Assembly (NCBI GenBank): GCA_046563655.1
Contig: CM102285.1
Coordinates: 9,858,001 to 9,922,000 of the forward strand
Source of the DNA: Yuukianura sp. NJ FZ-2021
Lineage: Eukaryota
Length of the DNA: 64,000 nucleotides
Reading direction: 5' to 3'
Shown here piece after piece: positions 3,101 to 32,624 of this stretch. Under the pieces are notes generated by a model, which saw only the letters and a list, made by a program, of their open reading frames with translations, did not search any database and had not been told where the DNA came from. Made by a program: the position numbers and the translations under genes. Position 1 is the stretch's first letter, and each line of letters starts with the position of its first letter.

Positions 3101-6100
3101 TTTTTTTCTTTTATTACTATATACTTTCTATGTTTCATCTCTATATCTGGAGAAAGGAAAAAGAGCTATGCCTCCGCCCATGAATTTAAAACAGAAACTC
3201 AATTAAATTATGAAAGCGGAGGTATAAAGACTGTTGCGCCGAGACTGAGACTTCCGTTTCGTTTTCCCAAAGTAGGATTTTAGTTTTTCGCCTATCGTTT
3301 TCTAGATAGCACTTCGTGCCCAAATCTGCTAGACCTTGGATTTAGTAGCATTAGGCGAAGAGAAAGGAGTTGAAAGCCTTGCTTTCACCAGACCGGATCA
3401 AAAAGCTCTACTGCTTCCTCTTCACTTAAAAAATAAAAATCCTGTCACGTTCTCCCTTAGCTTTCTCCTTCAAATGAGGAATTGAAATTCTCTAGACCTA
3501 ATCCCAAAGCCCATATATTCATCATCCGCCTCACTCTAGCTTCAATTCCTGTGAAACATCCTATCCTTTCTCCCGTCTTCCTGTAAGGACATCCTCCAAT
3601 GACAGTCCAAGTGCTCCTATTAGACCAGCGTTCTAAGTGAACCATTGAATTTTAAAATTCTGGCTTTCTCTCTCTCCTGCTTTTAGTCTTCCTGGATTGG
3701 AAAACTCTAGTGACCGTCCTCAAGCTAAACTCGAAGCCCCAGGAGCTTACATTTTTTTAGACAGGAAAGAGTGCTCGGGGAACCTCATCTGTCTGATGAA
3801 AGTTGTCTAGAGAGGGAAAAATTGAATTCAATTTCATTCTAGATGGTTTCACTCTCAAAGTCCGGTCAAGTCATGTACAGACAAACTGATGGTGACCTCT
3901 GGAAAAAGCATTTCTGAAGAGCTGCGTCCAGCGGATTTCAGTGGATAGAAACGTCAGAACCCGAGGAGAGTGAGTCAAGGACTTTAGGAAGCATTTGAGG
4001 ATCAAAATCACGTTACACGGATGGGGAAAGCCATTGATCACGTCTTTTGAACCGAGAGGCAGGGCCACGCCATTCTGTCCTGTTTTCACAGAAGCTCAAT
4101 TCTCTACGACGCGTCTACAAGGTTCTAAACAACTGTACGACACGAAATGAATGGATCGATACCACACAATTAACTCGCCGGGAAACGACAAACCGGTCAA
4201 CACGAAATTCCAAGCATTCGTAAAAAGAAAATTGCGTTTTTTGGAAACTTGTCGGGAAAGTTAAACAATTTCATTGATCGAACTTCGATTGAATTTGACT
4301 GAGTAACAGTCCAAAAAAATTTCTGCAATGTTAAATCCCTGCTCAAAAACAGTAATTTCGAAGAAACATCTTTACAAAGTTAAATTGAATTGAAAACTAT
4401 TTTGTTGAAGCATTTTGCTTTCTCCGAATTCAAGAATTGATAAATTAAATTAAAAAACTAATCAAAATGCAAACCTAAACTTAAAGCATAGCCTCGATTA
4501 CATTTCAGATCACTAGAAAATACCAGCCCTCGTTTCAAAACGACTTTCTCTAAAACTTTCTCCATTTCCTCCAACCTAGAAACAATGAAAAACACAAGAC
4601 ATTGAACTCCCATGTGCGGAAACTGTACTACTTTATAAACATGGTGCTCTTTGGTCCGTCTCGCCCGAAAAAGAAATAACACAACGAAGTACTTTACCAC
4701 CTCAAATATTTACACTACGCTTCCCTGCCTTGCTCTTCCCTCTGACAAATCCACAGGCAATTCCTGCCTCTTCCGCTTCCCGACACCATTTGCTCATGAT
4801 TCGTAATGGCCCTAACAATTTCTCCGGATTTGAGTAGCAACGTCTTCGTCTCTTTCAAAGCTTCAGCTTCACTTGGCTCCAGCATTTTCTCTTTTCTCGC
4901 AGGGAGAAATACGTTAGGAAATGAAATATTTATGAAAAAACTTACTTTGAAGTCGATATATCCGTTCTTGTCCATGTCAAACGTCCGGAAGACATGATCG
5001 CAAAACTCCTCGGCGTTACCCGTAGGGAAAAACATTTTGTACATATCCACAAACTTGGCGGGTGTTAGGCGTCCGTTGGGACAGTCTTGCTGTAAAAATC
5101 AAAAAGAGAAAAGTAAATATTCCTTTCTTTCATCATCGCAAATTTGGCAATTTGAATTTCTATTTTTACAAAAGCTTTGACCCATAAACAAAAAGGATTC
5201 AAGCAGAAAATTGGGCTGGTTCCGAAACAATTTATTTCCTTGTATTCCAGTCAATCAAACGTAGTCAAATGTTGGTAACTCACAACTGCCAACCCCATAA
5301 GTTCCATTACACAACAAACAAATAGGATCCGTTCAAAATGTAGGCATCCAATTCCATTTTCCTCTCACATATTTCTCAATTTCCTGCAGAGAGAGAGAGA
5401 GGACAGAAAGCCAAAAAATGGAAAAACACGAACTTGAAAGTAAAAGCGCTGCACCACGGGTGGAGTCCATTTCCCAAGTTTATGTTGCTAAAGCCAAAAT
5501 TTACTTTTTCCGTTTTTTCAATTCCAGGTTCCATAAATTATGTGGTAGAAGCAGGAAAGGAACGGGCGTGAGAGTGGATTTACTTTGGAAACCTAAGGAG
5601 AAAATTTCCGTTTTAAATTCCGTAGGTGAAAGTGCCAAGACACAACAGGGAAAAACGAAACAAAAAACACTTCCAAACAGGTGACGGAAATTCTGTTTAA
5701 GACGCCTCTCTTTTCATGTTATTCCGTCTCTACCATAACCTTTCTCTGGCAACTCCATAAATTAAACTTCCCTTTGCTTCTAGTTTCCTTTGTTTTCTCT
5801 ATTCAACAACGCCAGCCCTGCCTCATAGCGGTTAACAACTCCAATTCGCGTGGATTTTCCCGTCACAACCATTTGCCACATTTTCCTACTCAGTCGCCAA
5901 GGCTTCTAGAATATTTCCATGCTAAGCTGAATTTGATCAAAGGAAATCCAAGGAAAATCAATGCCTAGAGCCGAGGTCTAAACGCTTCCTCCACAAATGA
6001 ACTCGGAGCGACACAAGACAAAAACGGAAGTCCGGGAAGTACCGCTCAATACGCTTCTCCGCCTTTCTCTCATTACTCAATTCCAAAAGAGCAGCTTTTT

Positions 6101-13079: not shown

Positions 13080-13154
13080 AGGGACCTAACCTAACGTGAA
13101 CAAAACGAATAGCGTTAGGTTAGCCGGGTAACTAAGAGTTTAGGTTAGGTCCCT
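13080..13154. repeat. Inverted repeat built from TTAGG/CCTAA units
   Basis: agggacctaacctaa (13080-13094) is the exact reverse complement of ttaggttaggtccct (13140-13154). The internal cgttaggttag (13113-13123) is also complementary to the left arm. Confidence 0.7.
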
Positions 13155-26800: not shown

Positions 26801-27462
26801 TAATTAAGTTAATTAAGTTTCGAAAAACAAAAAGCAAAAACAGGAAATTGCGTTTTTCAGAAACGATCCTAGAAGCGTACCGCAATTTTTCCAAATGAAT
26901 TTTTCAAATGAGCAGGAACGCGTCCAATTTTTAATTTCTTTTCTCGCAATAGCGTTTTAGTAAAAGTTCGGGAGTTAGTAACTCATAGGTGGAATACACA
27001 TAATGCGCTTCTTCTTTAAAAATTGAATTGAAAAATGGTCTGACAAAAGACAAAGGTCAGACCATTGTGTACATTATGATTATGTACATAAGAAATGTGT
27101 CAAGCATGTCCAGGATAAAAGGTCAACATCATGCCGAACTCTGGCTTTTATTTGGATAGACTTTTACTGCTAAAATTTTTACAAACAAGCTCACATTCAG
27201 GTTAGACTTGCAACCTACAATCTTACAATAGGAATTGAGATACGTTTTGTTGGAAGCATGTTTTGGGACGACTCTTTAGGTAAGAAATACAATGGTTTTG
27301 GAAAAGGTTTCCTACAAGAATACTGATTTTATATACGATCAATACTTGGCAATGATTTGACACGTTGGAGAACGTTTAGTGGGTTACTCTGGAATAACTA
27401 ACGACAGCTTCCGAATTCAACCTCTGTAAGCTGCGGAATGATCCATTCTTAGGATCCATCCA

Positions 27463-29151
27463 TTAATCCCGTTCCAATTCAACGTACTCCAGAAGCGAAG
27501 CGATTTCGCGAGCCAGCTTTTCCGAAGCAGCGCAAACTACGCGCCGACTCAGCAGATCAAACGGGCCTCCTGGAATTTCAAATCAATCGGTTAGCAATTT
27601 GAATGTCAGAAGGTTGCTAAGCAATGCTTAGTTTTAGTTAGGTTAGGTTAAGCATGGAAATGGAACTGTTCAAGTTACCAGTGATGTCAATGACACTGCC
27701 GCCAGCTTCCTTGACAATCATTTCCCCGGCACACATGTCCCAAGCATGAACTCCTTGCTCGTAGTAAGCATCAACTGCACCAGAAGCAACAGACGCCATG
27801 TTAAGAGCAGCAGATCCAAGGGCTCTTATACTAAACACACAAATAACAGAACATTAAACACCGAAAAGCAATTTAAAACCCCGAAGTTCCTATGCGCCCG
27901 TGACAGTTCCATTTCCATGCACTCGGAATTCCTTAAGCGTTTAGTTTGTAAAGTGCCCAAGAATTTAAAAACATGCTTAAGGTGCGGTATACCTCCGTAG
28001 TCCAGGAAAGCTCCACCAGCTTCCTTAATAATTACGAGCTTCAAAAATAATAAAACACATAAAAACATAATTACAATTACAATAATTTAGGCTTTTCGAA
28101 ACAAGGAAAACCGAAATTCGGAACACACCGCTGCAGCAGTGTCCCACATATGAAGACCAAAATGGCAAAATGCATCGGCTCCACCACTGGCTATCATTCC
28201 ATAAGCACAAGTTGCTGATCCGAACAGTCGAACGCTAACGATGGGTGTTAATTAAACTTTCACTGGTTAATTGAGTGCATGGAAATGGAATAGTTTGAAT
28301 GGTTTTTGATTAAGAGACAGTTACCCGTGAACTTTGCCAATCAATTTTGTTAGATTGTTCAAAACAACCTTGACACGTTCTGGATCTTTGCTGGAACCCG
28401 CTTCAGAACAAACCAAAGCCTTAGCCAATTCTGGAATGATAAAAGAAAGTTAGAGAAAGTCTTCAAAAATATAAATTTTATAAAATCTTTTGAAATTTCC
28501 AAATTCGACTGAAATGACCATTGCCCTTACCAGTTTCTCCAGAGACTTTGATTGGTTTTCCATTTAGAAACGCTCCATGTCCAATTTTGGCAGTAAACAG
28601 TTGATCCAGCAGTGGATTGTAGATGATTCCAAGCACAGATTCTTTTTTAATAAGGAGTCCAATAGAAATGGCCACCAATGGCAACCCATGGACAAAGTTC
28701 ATGGTGCCATCCACGGGGTCAATGACCCACGTCGGGTCATCGGTCAGTTCACACGGTTGACCTTCCACGGCAGACTCCTCTCCGATAAACCTAAAAGCAA
28801 ATTTTGAATGTTCAATACGCCAGTTAAATTTTGTGTTGTTGAGCTGCACTGGAGAAAGTGGTGAAAGTACTTGTGCGTCGGAAAATGCTCCTTGAGTCCA
28901 CCAATTAACAATTTCTCCACCTCTCGATCTGTTTCAGTGACTAAATCGATATCACATGTTTTGGATTCCACGTTCTTTGCTTTCATTATTGCTGCACCGA
29001 TGATCTACCAAAAGAAAAGAGTTGGCTGAAATTTGAACTGACAATGCAAATTTGACAGTGAAAGTAAATTTAAACTTACTTGACCGCATTCTTTAGTTAG
29101 TCTGATTGCGGTTACGAAATATTTTTGAAGAAGTTCTGATTCAATTGACAT
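27463..29151 (-). CDS. IMPA1: Inositol monophosphatase (IMPA1/2 family), 276 aa, two predicted isoforms
   Basis: Constitutive exons 29151-29080, 29004-28871, 28790-28531, 28430-28325 and last exon 27569-27463, plus either module A (28234-28129 + 28038-27993) or exon B (27830-27679). The CDS is 831 nt either way. Motifs: DLVTETD, FIGEE, WVIDPVDGTMNFVHG, GSA, WD..A...I.KEAGG. Confidence 0.96.
27652..27669 (-). promoter_or_regulatory. Downstream intronic pairing element (intron after IMPase exon B)
   Basis: Plus strand gcatggaaatggaactgt; 18/18 complementary to 27903-27920. It starts at intron position 10 after the exon B donor. Confidence 0.78.
27679..27830 (-). CDS. IMPase alternative exon B (single 152-nt exon, canonical-like sequence)
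   Basis: tttag|T ATA AGA...ACT G|gtaac; encodes IRALGSAALNMASVASGAVDAYYEQGVHAWDMCAGEMIVKEAGGSVIDIT. Same length and phases as module A. Confidence 0.93.
27903..27924 (-). promoter_or_regulatory. Central intronic RNA-pairing element between IMPase module A and exon B
   Basis: Plus strand acagttccatttccatgcactc. 27907-27924 is the exact reverse complement of 28273-28290, and 27903-27920 is the exact reverse complement of 27652-27669. Confidence 0.8.
27993..28234 (-). CDS. IMPase alternative module A (two exons, 106+46 nt)
   Basis: 28234-28129 encodes VRLFGSATCAYGMIASGGADAFCHFGLHMWDTAAA and 28038-27993 encodes LVIIKEAGGAFLDYG. They are separated by a 90-nt GT..AG intron with an in-frame TAA. 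Entry phase 2 and exit phase 1 match the flanking exons, and the module aligns without gaps to exon B. Confidence 0.85.
28273..28290 (-). promoter_or_regulatory. Upstream intronic pairing element (intron before IMPase module A)
   Basis: Plus strand gagtgcatggaaatggaa; 18/18 complementary to 27907-27924. Confidence 0.78.
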
Positions 29152-29875
29152 GGCTCCTAGCGTTTGGTATGAACTTAGCACAGTCTTAATGGATATCCAA
29201 TGACTATGTAGTAGTGTGTGAGGTGATGTTAATGTTGCTAAGCTATTTAAGCCAATCTCAGTTGTAGTGGGAGGTTATCTCAGACAATTAGTCAAGGTGG
29301 AACTGTACTTGGAACCAGATTTGCCCCAGAGTAATGGGCTTGTCAATTTAAAAGTGACGTTTATTGGAAATTTTTTCAACTCCTGGGAACTGCTATAAGT
29401 GATTCTATCCCTGCCTTATACATAGGAAACTTCTTGCAAAAATGTATGTATACTACCAACTTCTAAGAGTTTTAGACTCTCAAAAGGTTATGGGCTTATG
29501 GTCATGCGTTTTATTCTCGGTTCACACAGTGGTGGCTGGAATTAGGCTTTATGGAAAACGTTAAAAGTGTAAATTGGATGGTGTTTGCTCAAAGGAAATC
29601 ATTTAAGACCAACTCAAACAACATTAAAAAAAGAGGCCAAGCGTCGTATTGAGAAATCCAATAAAAAATTATAAAAAGGAAACTTAACGCTTCGATTTTC
29701 TATTTCAACGAATTTTGTTTCGTGATATTAAACTATGCTAAGGCTAAAAATTCAAACCCTTTGCTCAAAAATTGCACAACAATTCCTATAATGTCTGTAT
29801 ATCTTCTGTGTATTGCATGAAATGCTCCAAAAGACATTTTTGATTAAAGAAAATTCAAAATTAGGAAATGAGTTT

Positions 29876-30092: not shown

Positions 30093-32624
30093 ATGAGATC
30101 GGACACTGAAGAAGAGGAAGGAGAAGAAATCGGAGGAGAAGGAGACTTTGTCACCGAAAACCCAATTGGAGTAAGTCTGGCTTTTATTTCAGGCTTTGCA
30201 AGATTCGTAAAACACTTCAAATCGGTTTACTCAAAATGTTCTATAGAAAAAAATGCAAAGGGAAATTAGCAAATTGAGGTTTCGATTCATCTGATTTTCT
30301 AATCAGGTTATGCGGGTCACGCTTTCACTTCGATTGCGTCTTGGTAGCGTCCTTTGAGGCTTCATGCTGGATTAACACATTTTAAAATCTTTCTAAAACT
30401 AATCTTTCTGAATTTAGGAGTATCACGGCGCTCGTAATGACAAGAATGAGCGTCACGGAAGGGGTCGAGCACTGCTGCCTGGAGGCGACATTTACCTCGG
30501 TTGCTATTACAAGGGTCTCCGTCACGGCCTTGGAATCTACAAGTACGCCAAAGGAAATGGAGCAAGATACGGAGGGGATTGGGTCATGGGTGAAAAGCAT
30601 GGCTGGGGAACAATGTACTATGGTAAGCATTTTCAATTGGTTGACTAATTAAAAAGTTACACTAAATCCGTCACTAAATGTTCGTCTGATTCTAGGCGAT
30701 GGTTCACAGTATACTGGTGAGTTTTGAACTGTTGGGAAGCAAAGTTTTTTGTACTATGAAGTTAACATTGAGGAAATTAATTAACGAAACCTAGGAAATT
30801 GGGAACATAATCAGCGTCATGGTTGGGGAGTTTATGTTTTCCCAAACTGCGATGAATACGAAGGCTGGTGGTATCGCGGAAACCGAAACGGACGTGGGAT
30901 TTATCGTACCCAGAAAACTGGCGAAAAGGTATGAAAACAATTAAATCCATTGAAAATTGAACCTCCATTAGCAGCAGTTGCGATTTTGTAAAAACTTGGA
31001 ACGTATATTTTTACAGTTTGTTGGAGATTGGATTTTGGGAAAGCGAAATGGTCCTGGAATGATAATTCGAGATGCTGAAAAGCACAAATTCATTGGAAAT
31101 TGGTACAACGATGTGGTGAGTTTAAGTATTTTTAATTCCAGGATTCAAAAATTCTCTTATATTCTTATTATTTGTTTTAAATTGAACTCATGAAGCCAAA
31201 AGGTGAAGGGGTATTTGTTTTCGATGAACTTTGCTGCGAACAACATGGACGCTACACTCAAATGAAGATTCCGCCAGAGTCAGAAAAGAAATGGAAGGAC
31301 AATGGATACCAAGTCATTTTGACCAGAGCAGGACCCCCACCATTCAATCCATTCGACGTAGAAAAATTGGAGGGTGAAAAAATAATGGTAAGGAATTGGC
31401 ACTGGATAATTCGAATGATATTTATTCGAATATTCGATATTCGAACGATAATTCGATTAAGTATAGTTTTGAATGTAAATTTCTATTTGAACAGGGTAGC
31501 GTCACGTCCAAAGCGGGAGAAGGTGACGATGGGGAAGGTTCGCGCAAAGGGGGTGGGGAGGATGCTGGAATTTTGCCAAATCCCGTTGAGATGCTGAAGA
31601 GCTACATGAAGCAGTTCGTCGAAGACGAATTCGCGAAAGACAAAGATCAAGTTCGGATTGTTCCAATTTGGCATGCAGTCAAAGTAAAAACCATATTTGT
31701 AATAATTATACTTTTTGAAATTGTTTAAAAAATGCTTGTTGCCTAAAAAATGCCTAAAATGTTGACTGGTTTTACTACAACCAGATTACTCCCATAATGA
31801 CTCCGCTTCCGGATGCCACCGTACCTCCGCCGCCAATTCCTCCGACTCCAGTGCCACCGCCTCTTCCTGAAGTTGAAAATGAAGTAATTCCAATACATTT
31901 TGGTTCAGTATTGCTGCAGTATTTATACTAGTTCGTTCTACTCTTTTAGGTTGAAGATGAAGAAGAGGAAGCCGAGGCTGAGGTAGCCGATCCTTATGCA
32001 GCCGCAAGACTTCTGGCGCAAACGCACGCGTTGGGTCCCGTCTACCACGGCCAAGGCGTCTGTCAGGACCACGAAGTGGCTCTAAAACTTCCGAAATCCG
32101 AGGAGCCATATGAACGATTTTCGCAGCTAAGTTTGACTCGTTTGGACAATATGAGGGACGTACTGGAAACTTGCGGCGGACAACTTCAGCCACTTGATTT
32201 GGAGGAAGTCAAGAAGCAAGCCACGTAAGAATTGGATTTAAAAATATTTCTGATCATTTTAATAAAATTCAGAAAGTTTTTCCTAAACGCGTTTAAATTT
32301 TGTTGGAACAGAATGAAAGGTTTGGACATGGCTACACGCTGGAGAGAATGCCTCAATCAGGATCCGAGTTGTCAGAATCCAGAAGCAGTTCCTCCGCCAA
32401 CCGAGGGCGGTAGAAGTACTTCGCAGACGTTGAACAGCAAAGATGGCCGTGCTTCAACTGGGTATGCACCGGATAATGATACTGAGCACACAGTAACTGA
32501 ACCAGAGGAAACGGATGCCTCTTATGTAAGAACACAACCAATTTTGTCAACTTCATGGATCAATTTGATTGGTGCATGATTTGATTAATCTCTGTTTCAG
32601 ACGACTGAAGAAGAGCAAGGCTAA
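30093..32624 (+). CDS. RSPH1: Radial spoke head protein 1-like MORN-repeat protein with a long Pro-rich/acidic C-terminal extension
   Basis: About 11 exons (30093-30170, 30418-30622, 30696-30716, 30795-30928, 31017-31115, 31196-31387, 31495-31683, 31785-31883, 31950-32225, 32312-32525, 32601-32624). An acidic N-terminus is followed by [45 protein letters not shown]...[33 protein letters not shown]...[13 protein letters not shown], matching the RSPH1 MORN array and EQHG motif. The 3' exons are less certain. Confidence 0.88.

What the first reader, a model, noticed from the sequence alone, without database searches (positions are those of the whole stretch)
27652..28290. Three-element competing RNA-pairing switch controlling IMPase alternative exons
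Seen in sequence: in the minus-strand pre-mRNA, a central intronic element (GAGUGCAUGGAAAUGGAACUGU, 27924-27903) sits between module A and exon B. It can form a perfect 18-bp helix with an upstream intronic element (UUCCAUUUCCAUGCACUC, 28290-28273) or a perfect 18-bp helix with a downstream one (ACAGUUCCAUUUCCAUGC, 27669-27652). The two helices share 14 nt, so they are mutually exclusive, and both can extend a few bp past small bulges. Upstream pairing loops out module A, which would favour B. Downstream pairing loops out exon B and sits 10 nt from its 5' splice site, which would favour A. Established: competing intronic pairings drive mutually exclusive splicing in insect Dscam1, 14-3-3zeta and Mhc, and a central element competing for both flanks is described for human ATE1 exons 7a/7b. 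Inference: the same mechanism operates here in an inositol monophosphatase, where I know of no description of it. Two perfect 18-mers in introns of 90-160 nt are very unlikely by chance.
Basis: partly seen in the sequence, partly recalled or inferred. Interest (0 to 1): 0.92.

Follow-up and report, generated by a model that had tools for sequence, protein, structure and literature searches.

The report
RNA switch for alternative IMPase exons
A springtail-like inositol monophosphatase gene carries two interchangeable versions of one coding segment, and three short intron sequences can form two equally strong, mutually exclusive RNA helices that most likely help the cell use one version or the other, a known kind of splicing control seen here in a new gene and animal group.

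Summary
On the minus strand, C (27924-27903) forms a perfect 18-bp helix with U (28290-28273) or with D (27669-27652). The two helices share 14 nt and are isoenergetic (-30.7 and -30.0 kcal/mol). They are the only perfect inverted repeats of 16 nt or more within 1 kb in the 64-kb window.

The gene is an IMPase closest to springtail proteins. Module A (two exons, 106+46 nt) and exon B (152 nt) are homologous. Including both or neither shifts the frame. Folsomia isoforms X1/X2 and an unnamed JGI protein pair show both forms in relatives.

Two related genomic contigs (L008, L010) each have a helix of about -31 kcal/mol between the A-B intron and the B-last intron, with unrelated sequences (0 of 200 shuffles each). 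So a helix that loops out B is conserved in architecture. The upstream competitor U is significant only in the window.

My reading: an old helix that bypasses B, plus a lineage-specific second selector that makes a two-way switch. This resembles Drosophila srp, but with one shared docking site. No RNA data exist for this species, so function is inferred. It is a new variant of a known kind, of moderate interest.

The parts
28273..28290 (-). U: upstream selector in the e4-A1 intron (intron positions 35-52 of 90); perfect 18-bp complement of C 27924-27907
27903..27924 (-). C: shared docking element in the A2-B intron (positions 69-90 of 162); pairs with U through 27924-27907 or with D through 27920-27903, with a 14-nt overlap
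27652..27669 (-). D: downstream selector in the B-last intron (positions 10-27 of 109), 9 nt after the exon B 5' splice site
28129..28234 (-). Exon A1 (106 nt), first half of alternative module A; matches PF00459 profile positions 189-224
27993..28038 (-). Exon A2 (46 nt), second half of module A; A1+A2 = 152 nt, 50 codons
27679..27830 (-). Exon B (152 nt), the canonical alternative; matches PF00459 profile positions 190-239 and aligns to residues 190-239 of solved IMPA1 chains
28325..28430 (-). Constitutive exon e4 upstream of the cluster
27463..27569 (-). Last exon (constitutive), including the stop codon
28531..29151 (-). Exons e1 (29080-29151), e2 (28871-29004) and e3 (28531-28790) of the same IMPase gene; either isoform is 276 aa

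Best explanation
The window holds a springtail-type inositol monophosphatase gene on the minus strand. It has an old pair of mutually exclusive coding alternatives: module A (here split into A1 and A2) and exon B.

The C-D helix is this lineage's version of a conserved inter-intronic helix of about -30 kcal/mol. That helix loops out exon B and brings the 5' splice site of A next to the last exon. In the window it also starts 9 nt from the exon B 5' splice site. As a result, transcripts that take A skip B rather than including both.

In the window's lineage a second selector, U, has appeared in the intron upstream of A. U pairs with the same docking element C. The U-C helix loops out module A and brings exon e4 next to B. 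The two helices share 14 nt of C and have equal stability, so only one can exist per transcript, which gives a two-way switch. The 4 nt of C left free in each helix could serve as toeholds for exchange.

What is shown: the elements, their exclusivity and energies, the exon homology and frame logic, both isoforms in relatives, and recurrence of the B-looping helix. What is inferred: that the helices form in vivo and steer splicing, the direction of each effect (by analogy with srp), and the toehold idea.
For: Elements and chance. The coordinates and perfect 18-bp pairings are confirmed. In shuffle tests, 0 of 200 reach the observed score for either helix. Only these 2 of 21 intron pairs in the gene stand out.

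Energies and exclusivity. The duplexes are -30.7 (U-C) and -30.0 (C-D) kcal/mol. In the folded ensemble of the 968-nt segment from e4 to the last exon, C is paired with U (P 0.84-0.94) or with D (P 0.04-0.06), which sums to about 1. Blocking C costs about 19 kcal/mol. Blocking U or D gives nearly equal ensembles (-292.0 and -292.4).

The exon pair. Each isoform is 276 aa. Including A+B, skipping both, A1 alone, or A1+B all give early stops. A1 and B hit PF00459 at the same profile positions.

Relatives. Folsomia candida X1 and X2 differ at 21 positions, all within residues 191-238. An unnamed JGI pair differs at 26 positions, 25 of them in the alternative segment. Gene predictions for Allacma, Orchesella and Folsomia contain A and B in tandem.

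Comparative RNA evidence. Genomic loci L008 and L010 carry A and B as 152-nt exons. Each has a helix between the A-B intron and the B-last intron, with scores of 49 and 48 and 0 of 200 shuffles as good. The energies are -32.4 and -30.8 kcal/mol and P is about 1 in the global fold. Their sequences are unrelated to the window's.

Precedent. In srp, upstream pairing drives the distal exon, downstream pairing drives the proximal exon, and disrupting both gives double inclusion or skipping.
Against: Isoform use in this species is unverified.

The U-type helix is absent from 2 of 2 relatives (149 of 200 and 148 of 200 shuffles do as well; 52 of 500 for L008 and 13 of 500 for L010). The three-element competition is therefore not conserved and U could be young and neutral.

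The equilibrium model favours U-C about 94:6, and U-C is also transcribed first. On this model C-D would form rarely unless kinetics or proteins intervene.

In L008 and L010 the B-looping helix is predicted at P of about 1 with no competitor. Springtails such as Folsomia nonetheless have both forms. The helix alone therefore does not decide between A and B, and its role may be fidelity rather than choice.

Contigs in 2 DNA runs (X1, X3) stop matching the window at 28283, inside U (table 7). U may be polymorphic, or those contigs may come from another locus.

The core is a doubled hexamer, which makes origin by slippage somewhat easier. The three species' helices cannot be aligned, so no column-by-column covariation test was possible.
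Confidence: 0.55

Rival explanations
1. Only the C-D helix (looping out B) is functional, as a fidelity device that prevents A+B double inclusion. U is a recent, selectively neutral copy of the D-type sequence and has no role in exon choice.
For: The helix between the middle and downstream introns is significant in 3 of 3 loci, while the upstream-middle helix is significant in only 1 of 3. No clear upstream competitor exists in L008 or L010. U and D are 17 of 19 identical as direct repeats (family D2). A contig in 2 runs diverges inside U.
Against: U-C is a perfect 18-bp helix with the same energy as C-D. It is offset by exactly 4 nt rather than being a plain copy of D. It sits in a locus where DNA contigs differ from the window by up to 11 substitutions and 2 gaps in 130 nt next to U (table 8, record 5), yet none of the listed variants falls inside U. 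That list is truncated: 40 of 170 substitutions and 12 of 17 indels are shown. A stable helix that sequesters the docking site would affect C-D whether or not it was selected for.
Confidence: 0.2
2. The inverted repeats flanking module A and exon B promote back-splicing, giving circular RNAs of A1-A2 or of B. They would then not direct linear exon choice, or would do so only in addition.
For: The geometry fits: complementary sequences lie in the introns on both sides of an exon.
Against: The arms are only 18 nt. The exons form a frame-locked mutually exclusive pair, for which competing structures are the documented mechanism. No RNA data were available to test either outcome.
Confidence: 0.08
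3. The three elements are remnants of a dispersed repeat, a transposon end or microsatellite-like slippage, and have no function.
For: The core is (TTCCAT)x2. The whole genome is not held, so the genome-wide copy number could not be checked.
Against: Only 3 exact copies of the 14-mer occur in 64 kb, all in this gene. No contig laid on the stretch fits two places of it (table 1: 0 in all 4 runs). Similarity among U, D and the complement of C does not extend beyond the paired core. Analogous helices at the same place in 2 relatives use different sequences. There is no Rfam match.
Confidence: 0.07

Closest known systems
Bidirectional RNA pairing at Drosophila serpent (srp) exons 4.1/4.2 (Yue et al. 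2016, PMC4691838; abstract, section 5 and passages read)
   Same: Both have two mutually exclusive exons with intronic elements in the upstream, middle and downstream introns. In srp, pairing of upstream with middle favours the distal exon, and pairing of middle with downstream favours the proximal exon. The outcome depends on relative pairing strength, and loss of both pairings gives double inclusion or skipping with a frameshift.
   Different: srp has four elements, with two separate docking sites in the middle intron, so both stems could coexist as a pseudoknot. Here a single 22-nt docking element is shared with a 14-nt overlap, so exclusivity is built into the sequence. The proximal alternative here is a two-exon module. 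The gene and taxon differ, and only the downstream pairing recurs in relatives.
Human ATE1 exons 7a/7b, elements R1/R3/R4 (Kalinina et al. 2020/21, PMC7797038; abstract and passages read)
   Same: A single central element (R3) in the intron between the two exons is complementary to two similar competitors. The isoform ratio tracks the difference between the two helix energies. Blocking R3 gives double exons.
   Different: R1 and R4 both lie immediately upstream of their exons. R4 is in the same intron as R3, and both act by hindering 3' splice sites. Here the competitors lie on opposite flanks (upstream of A, downstream of B), loop out whole exons, and one abuts a 5' splice site. No counterpart of the 30-kb R2-R5 module was seen.
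Docking site/selector systems of Dscam1 exon 6, 14-3-3zeta and Mhc (recalled; seen here only as cited)
   Same: One docking site is complementary to several selectors, and only one pairing can form per transcript.
   Different: In those systems, as I recall them, all selectors lie on one side of the docking site, one per variable exon. Here there are two selectors on opposite sides of a central docking site.
Duplication model for the origin of competing structures (Ivanov and Pervouchine 2018, PMC6071210; abstract only)
   Same: U and D are near-identical direct repeats, both complementary to one element, as expected if one arm of a stem was copied.
   Different: U and D sit at non-equivalent positions relative to their exons (38 nt upstream of A1, 9 nt downstream of B). 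Similarity does not extend beyond the core. A copy made together with the exon duplication is therefore not supported.

Membership tests
Competing RNA structure (docking/selector) control of mutually exclusive exons | A cluster of homologous, same-length alternative exons of which exactly one is used | tested here: met
   A1+A2 and B are each 152 nt, with 21 of 50 aa identical. Both match the same PF00459 profile positions. Including both or neither gives a premature stop. Isoform pairs in relatives differ only in this segment. Use of both forms in this species could not be tested.
Competing RNA structure (docking/selector) control of mutually exclusive exons | One docking element complementary to two or more selectors, with pairings that cannot coexist | tested here: met
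   C pairs with U or D in perfect 18-bp helices that share 14 nt. In the ensemble, P(U-C) plus P(C-D) is about 1.
Competing RNA structure (docking/selector) control of mutually exclusive exons | Pairings conserved in evolution, by sequence or by compensated architecture | tested here: inconclusive
   A helix between the middle and downstream introns is present in 3 of 3 loci with unrelated sequences. The upstream-middle helix is present in 1 of 3. Only 2 relatives were available and the introns could not be aligned.
Competing RNA structure (docking/selector) control of mutually exclusive exons | Disruptive and compensatory mutations change and then restore exon choice | not testable with these tools
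   This needs a minigene or in vivo editing.
Bidirectional dual pairing (srp type) | Elements in the upstream, middle and downstream introns form one upstream and one downstream stem | tested here: met
   U lies in e4|A1, C in A2|B and D in B|last.
Bidirectional dual pairing (srp type) | Two separate docking sites in the middle intron (four elements) | tested here: not met
   There are only three elements, and the two docking stretches overlap by 14 of 18 nt. srp has four elements.
ATE1-type R1/R3/R4 module | Competitors lie immediately upstream of each alternative exon and mask the 3' splice sites | tested here: not met
   U ends 38 nt upstream of A1. D lies downstream of B at intron position +10.
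Inositol monophosphatase family (PF00459) | Match to the family profile above the curated cut-off | tested here: met
   Exon 3 scores 117.1 bits, exon B 65.1 bits and exon A1 32.9 bits, against a cut-off of 27. Exon B aligns to residues 190-239 of solved IMPA1 chains.

The most novel reading that the evidence does not exclude
This locus may show a one-way fidelity helix turning into a two-way splicing switch. On this reading, springtails have long used a single helix of about -30 kcal/mol to bypass exon B when A is taken. One lineage then gained a second selector, offset by 4 nt, that competes for the same docking site with equal energy. The result would be a minimal three-element, toehold-bearing RNA switch contained within 640 nt. 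It would choose between two IMPase active-site variants, the Glu213-type and the His-type.
Probability: 0.35. Interest if true: 0.62.

Novelty: new variant of a known kind. Interest (0 to 1): 0.48.

Why it matters
Competing RNA structures are the main documented way of keeping duplicated exons mutually exclusive, but well-defined cases are few and mostly come from flies and mammals. This would be a compact case, with everything inside about 640 nt and two perfect isoenergetic helices. It lies in a basal hexapod and in a metabolic enzyme.

The alternative segment corresponds to IMPA1 residues 190-239. That stretch includes the positions of Glu213 and Asp220. From recall, not checked here, Glu213 contacts the inositol ring and Asp220 binds metal. 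All A-type exons seen replace the Glu with His, so the switch would select between enzymes with different substrate pockets.

The comparison with two relatives also suggests how a bidirectional switch can arise from a single conserved helix. That order of events is testable once more springtail genomes are aligned.

Practically, the Allacma, Orchesella cincta and one Folsomia gene prediction fuse A and B into one protein, and these models should be corrected.

Tried and rejected
No whole genome is held for this window, so the genome-wide copy number of the element could not be counted.

No RNA holder was listed by the look-up of sequencing runs, so isoform use and junctions in this species could not be read.

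Read laying on 4 DNA runs gave only contigs. No listed variant falls inside U, C or D, but only 40 of 170 substitutions and 12 of 17 indels were printed. By my own count, 14 listed variants lie in the three flanking introns, so about 2 would be expected in the elements by chance. This is not significant and I do not use it as evidence of constraint. Depth per contig cannot show repeat copy number.

RNAduplex on whole introns gave long interrupted duplexes and noisy z-scores (window U-C z -4.5, C-D z -1.9). I replaced it with an ungapped local helix score.

The loose-end sequence at 28283 was searched in the window with up to 3 mismatches and gave 0 matches, so it is not a local rearrangement. 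Its origin is unknown.

The Rfam scan of 27000-29400 gave one chance-level miRNA match outside the region (E 0.88).

tblastn of both isoforms against the window found no second IMPase gene, so no paralogue comparison was possible.

Earlier findings of this scan: nothing by place or by words.

Of the 80 metagenome loci returned, I screened the 25 best-scoring by tblastn and 22 hand-picked ones. Only L008 and L010 were seen to hold both A and B. Seven (L001-L007) look like intronless transcripts of B type. The other screened loci hold a single B-type exon or non-springtail or prokaryotic homologues. Not all 80 were examined, so further A+B loci cannot be excluded.

Literature searches for IMPase with mutually exclusive exons or RNA structure found nothing relevant: 3 papers, 5 and 2, all off-topic.

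The remaining protein-database searches were not spent on the phyletic spread of the A-type exon.
Full report
**1. The observation**

- U, TTCCATTTCCATGCACTC, at 28290-28273
- C, GAGTGCATGGAAATGGAACTGT, at 27924-27903
- D, ACAGTTCCATTTCCATGC, at 27669-27652

The repeat finder reports both arm pairs as 18 nt and 100% complementary, with 348 nt and 233 nt between the arms. The two helices share 14 nt of C.

The 14-nt core occurs three times exactly in the 64-kb window, all in this gene. In the whole window there are only three perfect inverted repeats of 14 nt or more within 1 kb, and only two of 16 nt or more. Those two are these helices. Among the 21 pairs of introns of the gene, these two pairs score 44 on an ungapped pairing score and the other 19 score 25 or less. 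In 200 dinucleotide-preserving shuffles of the introns, none reaches the observed score for either pair. One caveat is that the core is a doubled hexamer.

**2. The gene**

On the minus strand lies one inositol monophosphatase gene:

| Exon | Coordinates |
|---|---|
| e1 | 29080-29151 |
| e2 | 28871-29004 |
| e3 | 28531-28790 |
| e4 | 28325-28430 |
| A1 | 28129-28234 |
| A2 | 27993-28038 |
| B | 27679-27830 |
| last | 27463-27569 |

All introns are GT..AG and 75-162 nt long.
- Exon 3, A1 and B all match Pfam PF00459. A1 and B match the same profile positions, 189-224 and 190-239.
- A1+A2 and B are each 152 nt, covering 50 codons, with 21 of 50 residues identical.
- With A or with B the protein is 276 aa. 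With both, with neither, with A1 alone or with A1+B, the frame shifts to an early stop.

This is the frame logic of a mutually exclusive pair. The unusual feature is that one alternative is a two-exon module.

**3. Whose gene it is, and whether both forms are used**

The closest proteins to exon 3 are an unnamed JGI protein (82% identity) and Allacma fusca (80%), followed by further springtails and insects. No protein of this species itself is in the collection.

Evidence from relatives:
- Folsomia candida isoforms X1 and X2 are both 273 aa and differ at 21 positions, all within residues 191-238.
- Two unnamed JGI proteins of 272 aa from one cluster differ at 26 positions, 25 of them in the alternative segment. 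One is A-type and one is B-type.
- The Allacma fusca, Orchesella cincta and one Folsomia gene prediction carry an A-type and a B-type segment in tandem. This is an annotation error, but it shows both exons in those genomes.

A-type exons share a DAFCH motif where B-type exons have DAYYE. The A/B pair is therefore old within springtails, and both forms are annotated in at least one named relative. Use in the window's own species could not be tested.

**4. Energetics in the window**
- The two core duplexes are -30.7 kcal/mol (U-C) and -30.0 kcal/mol (C-D).
- With 12-nt flanks they are -34.3 and -35.9 kcal/mol. The C-D extension reaches the GU of the exon B 5' splice site.
- In the folded ensemble of the 968-nt stretch from e4 to the last exon, each U-C pair has probability 0.84-0.94 and each C-D pair 0.04-0.06. 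C is therefore almost always in one helix or the other.
- Blocking U gives an ensemble energy of -292.0 with C on D. Blocking D gives -292.4 with C on U. Blocking C gives -279.5.

The preference for U-C is about 1.7 kcal/mol by my arithmetic from these probabilities, which is within the error of the model. U and C are also transcribed before D.

**5. Relatives at the DNA level**

One scan of metagenome contigs with an alignment of the A-to-end parts of three springtail predictions returned 80 loci. I screened the 25 best by tblastn and 22 hand-picked ones, not all 80. Two of these, L008 and L010, were seen to hold e4, an A-type exon, a B-type exon and the last exon in order. Both are closest to springtail proteins among 13 proteins compared. 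In both, A is a single 152-nt exon, so the A1|A2 intron of the window is probably a gain.

The same helix test was applied to all three loci:

| Locus | Middle x downstream introns: score (shuffles as good) | Upstream x middle introns: shuffles as good |
|---|---|---|
| window | 44 (0 of 200) | 0 of 200 |
| L008 | 49 (0 of 200) | 149 of 200 |
| L010 | 48 (0 of 200) | 148 of 200 |

The helices of L008 (509-539 with 1013-1043, -32.4 kcal/mol) and L010 (3192-3216 with 3644-3668, -30.8 kcal/mol) form with probability near 1 in folds of about 1.1 kb. Their sequences are unrelated to each other and to the window's. In both relatives the middle arm begins 17-20 nt after the 5' splice site of A.

Searching e4, the upstream intron and exon A for a partner of the middle arm gave nothing in L008 (52 of 500 shuffles as good). 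In L010 it gave only a marginal 12-nt match inside exon A (13 of 500).

So a helix of about -30 kcal/mol that loops out exon B recurs in 3 of 3 loci. The upstream competitor is seen in 1 of 3.

**6. Reading**

The conserved part is a helix that encloses exon B and shortens the path from the 5' splice site of A to the last exon. By my arithmetic from the positions, the looped path is about 100-150 nt instead of 423-641 nt. I infer that it lets transcripts that have taken A skip B, which avoids the frameshifting A+B product.

When e4 is joined directly to B, the middle arm is removed with the intron, and B then joins the last exon normally. This explains how both isoforms can exist in species where the helix has no competitor.

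In the window's lineage, U adds the opposite stem. It encloses A1 and A2 and brings e4 close to B, a looped path of about 106 nt instead of 494 nt. Because it uses the same docking element, each transcript can hold only one stem.

This matches what was shown by mutagenesis for Drosophila srp. There, upstream pairing drives the distal exon, downstream pairing drives the proximal exon, the ratio follows relative strength, and loss of both stems gives double inclusion or skipping. The direction of the effects here is inferred by that analogy. The idea that the 4 free nucleotides of C act as toeholds for exchange is my own inference.

**7. Evidence against, and open points**
- No RNA data exist for this species.
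- U is not conserved, so it may be young and neutral.
- The model's 94:6 preference, together with the order of transcription, would make C-D rare unless kinetics or proteins intervene.
- In the DNA runs laid on the locus, contigs differ from the window by up to 11 substitutions and 2 gaps in 130 nt beside U. An AA insertion sits directly next to U, behind 28291. None of the listed variants lies inside U, C or D. However, only 40 of 170 substitutions and 12 of 17 indels were printed, so this is not evidence of constraint.
- Contigs in runs X1 and X3 stop matching at 28283, inside U. Their other part is not found in the window. U may be polymorphic, or those contigs may come from another locus.

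**8. Comparison with what is known**

The class of mechanism, competing RNA pairings in mutually exclusive splicing, is well established (listing; abstract of PMC6071210).
- srp is the closest case. It has four elements and two separate docking sites that could coexist as a pseudoknot. Here one docking element is shared.
- ATE1 has a shared central element, but both competitors lie upstream of their exons and act on 3' splice sites.
- Dscam exon 6, 14-3-3zeta and Mhc are recalled as one-sided docking/selector systems. I did not read those papers.

Three full-text searches found no paper linking IMPase with mutually exclusive exons or RNA structure, or describing mutually exclusive splicing in Folsomia. 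There is no Rfam family in the region.

**9. Verdict**

The elements are real. The exon pair is a genuine and old mutually exclusive pair. One of the two helices has comparative support. The full three-element switch is plausible but lineage-specific and untested. It is a new variant of a known kind of splicing control, in a new gene and a new animal group. I put my confidence in the switch reading at 0.55 and interest at about 0.48.

Noticed in passing
window 28039-28128 (minus strand): Alternative A is split by a 90-nt GT..AG intron into A1 and A2. In the related loci L008 (338-489) and L010 (3024-3175), A is one 152-nt exon. This looks like an intron gain inside an alternative exon, giving a two-exon module opposite a single exon.
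   Followed up: partly
proteins P0014 and P0022 (Branchiostoma lanceolatum isoforms X2 and X1): Both are 284 aa and differ at 20 positions, all within residues 200-249. This is the same IMPase segment as the springtail A/B exon. The same exon seems to have been duplicated into a mutually exclusive pair in amphioxus as well.
   Followed up: partly
window exon A1 against exon B; proteins: All A-type exons seen carry DAFCH where B-type exons carry DAYYE. The position aligned to IMPA1 Glu213 is His in A-type exons. The roles of Glu213 and Asp220 are recalled, not checked here. The two isoforms may differ in substrate pocket.
   Followed up: partly
window 28283 (inside U), table 7: Contigs in DNA runs X1 and X3 match the window from 28283 upward and carry unrelated sequence below it. 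That sequence is not found elsewhere in the window. This could be a haplotype lacking half of U, or another locus.
   Followed up: partly
proteins P0003 (Allacma fusca), P0123 (Orchesella cincta), P0121 (Folsomia candida): These public gene predictions run A and B together in one protein of 337, 349 and 317 aa. Mutually exclusive exons have been mis-modelled as consecutive exons.
   Followed up: yes
L010 3084-3095 with 3194-3205: A 12-nt stretch inside exon A is 92% complementary to the middle arm of the conserved helix. Only 13 of 500 shuffles do as well. It could be a local competitor in that species, or chance.
   Followed up: partly
window 27637-27650 (minus strand) and 13080-13094 / 13140-13154: A telomere-like CCTAA run (TAACCTAACCTAAC) lies directly 3' of D. 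The only other perfect inverted repeat of 14 nt or more in the window also contains CCTAACCTAA.
   Followed up: no
window about 30093-31700 (plus strand): A gene with a MORN repeat (PF02493, 25.9 bits) lies head-to-head with the IMPase gene. Its start codon at 30093 is 941 nt from the IMPase start at 29151.
   Followed up: partly
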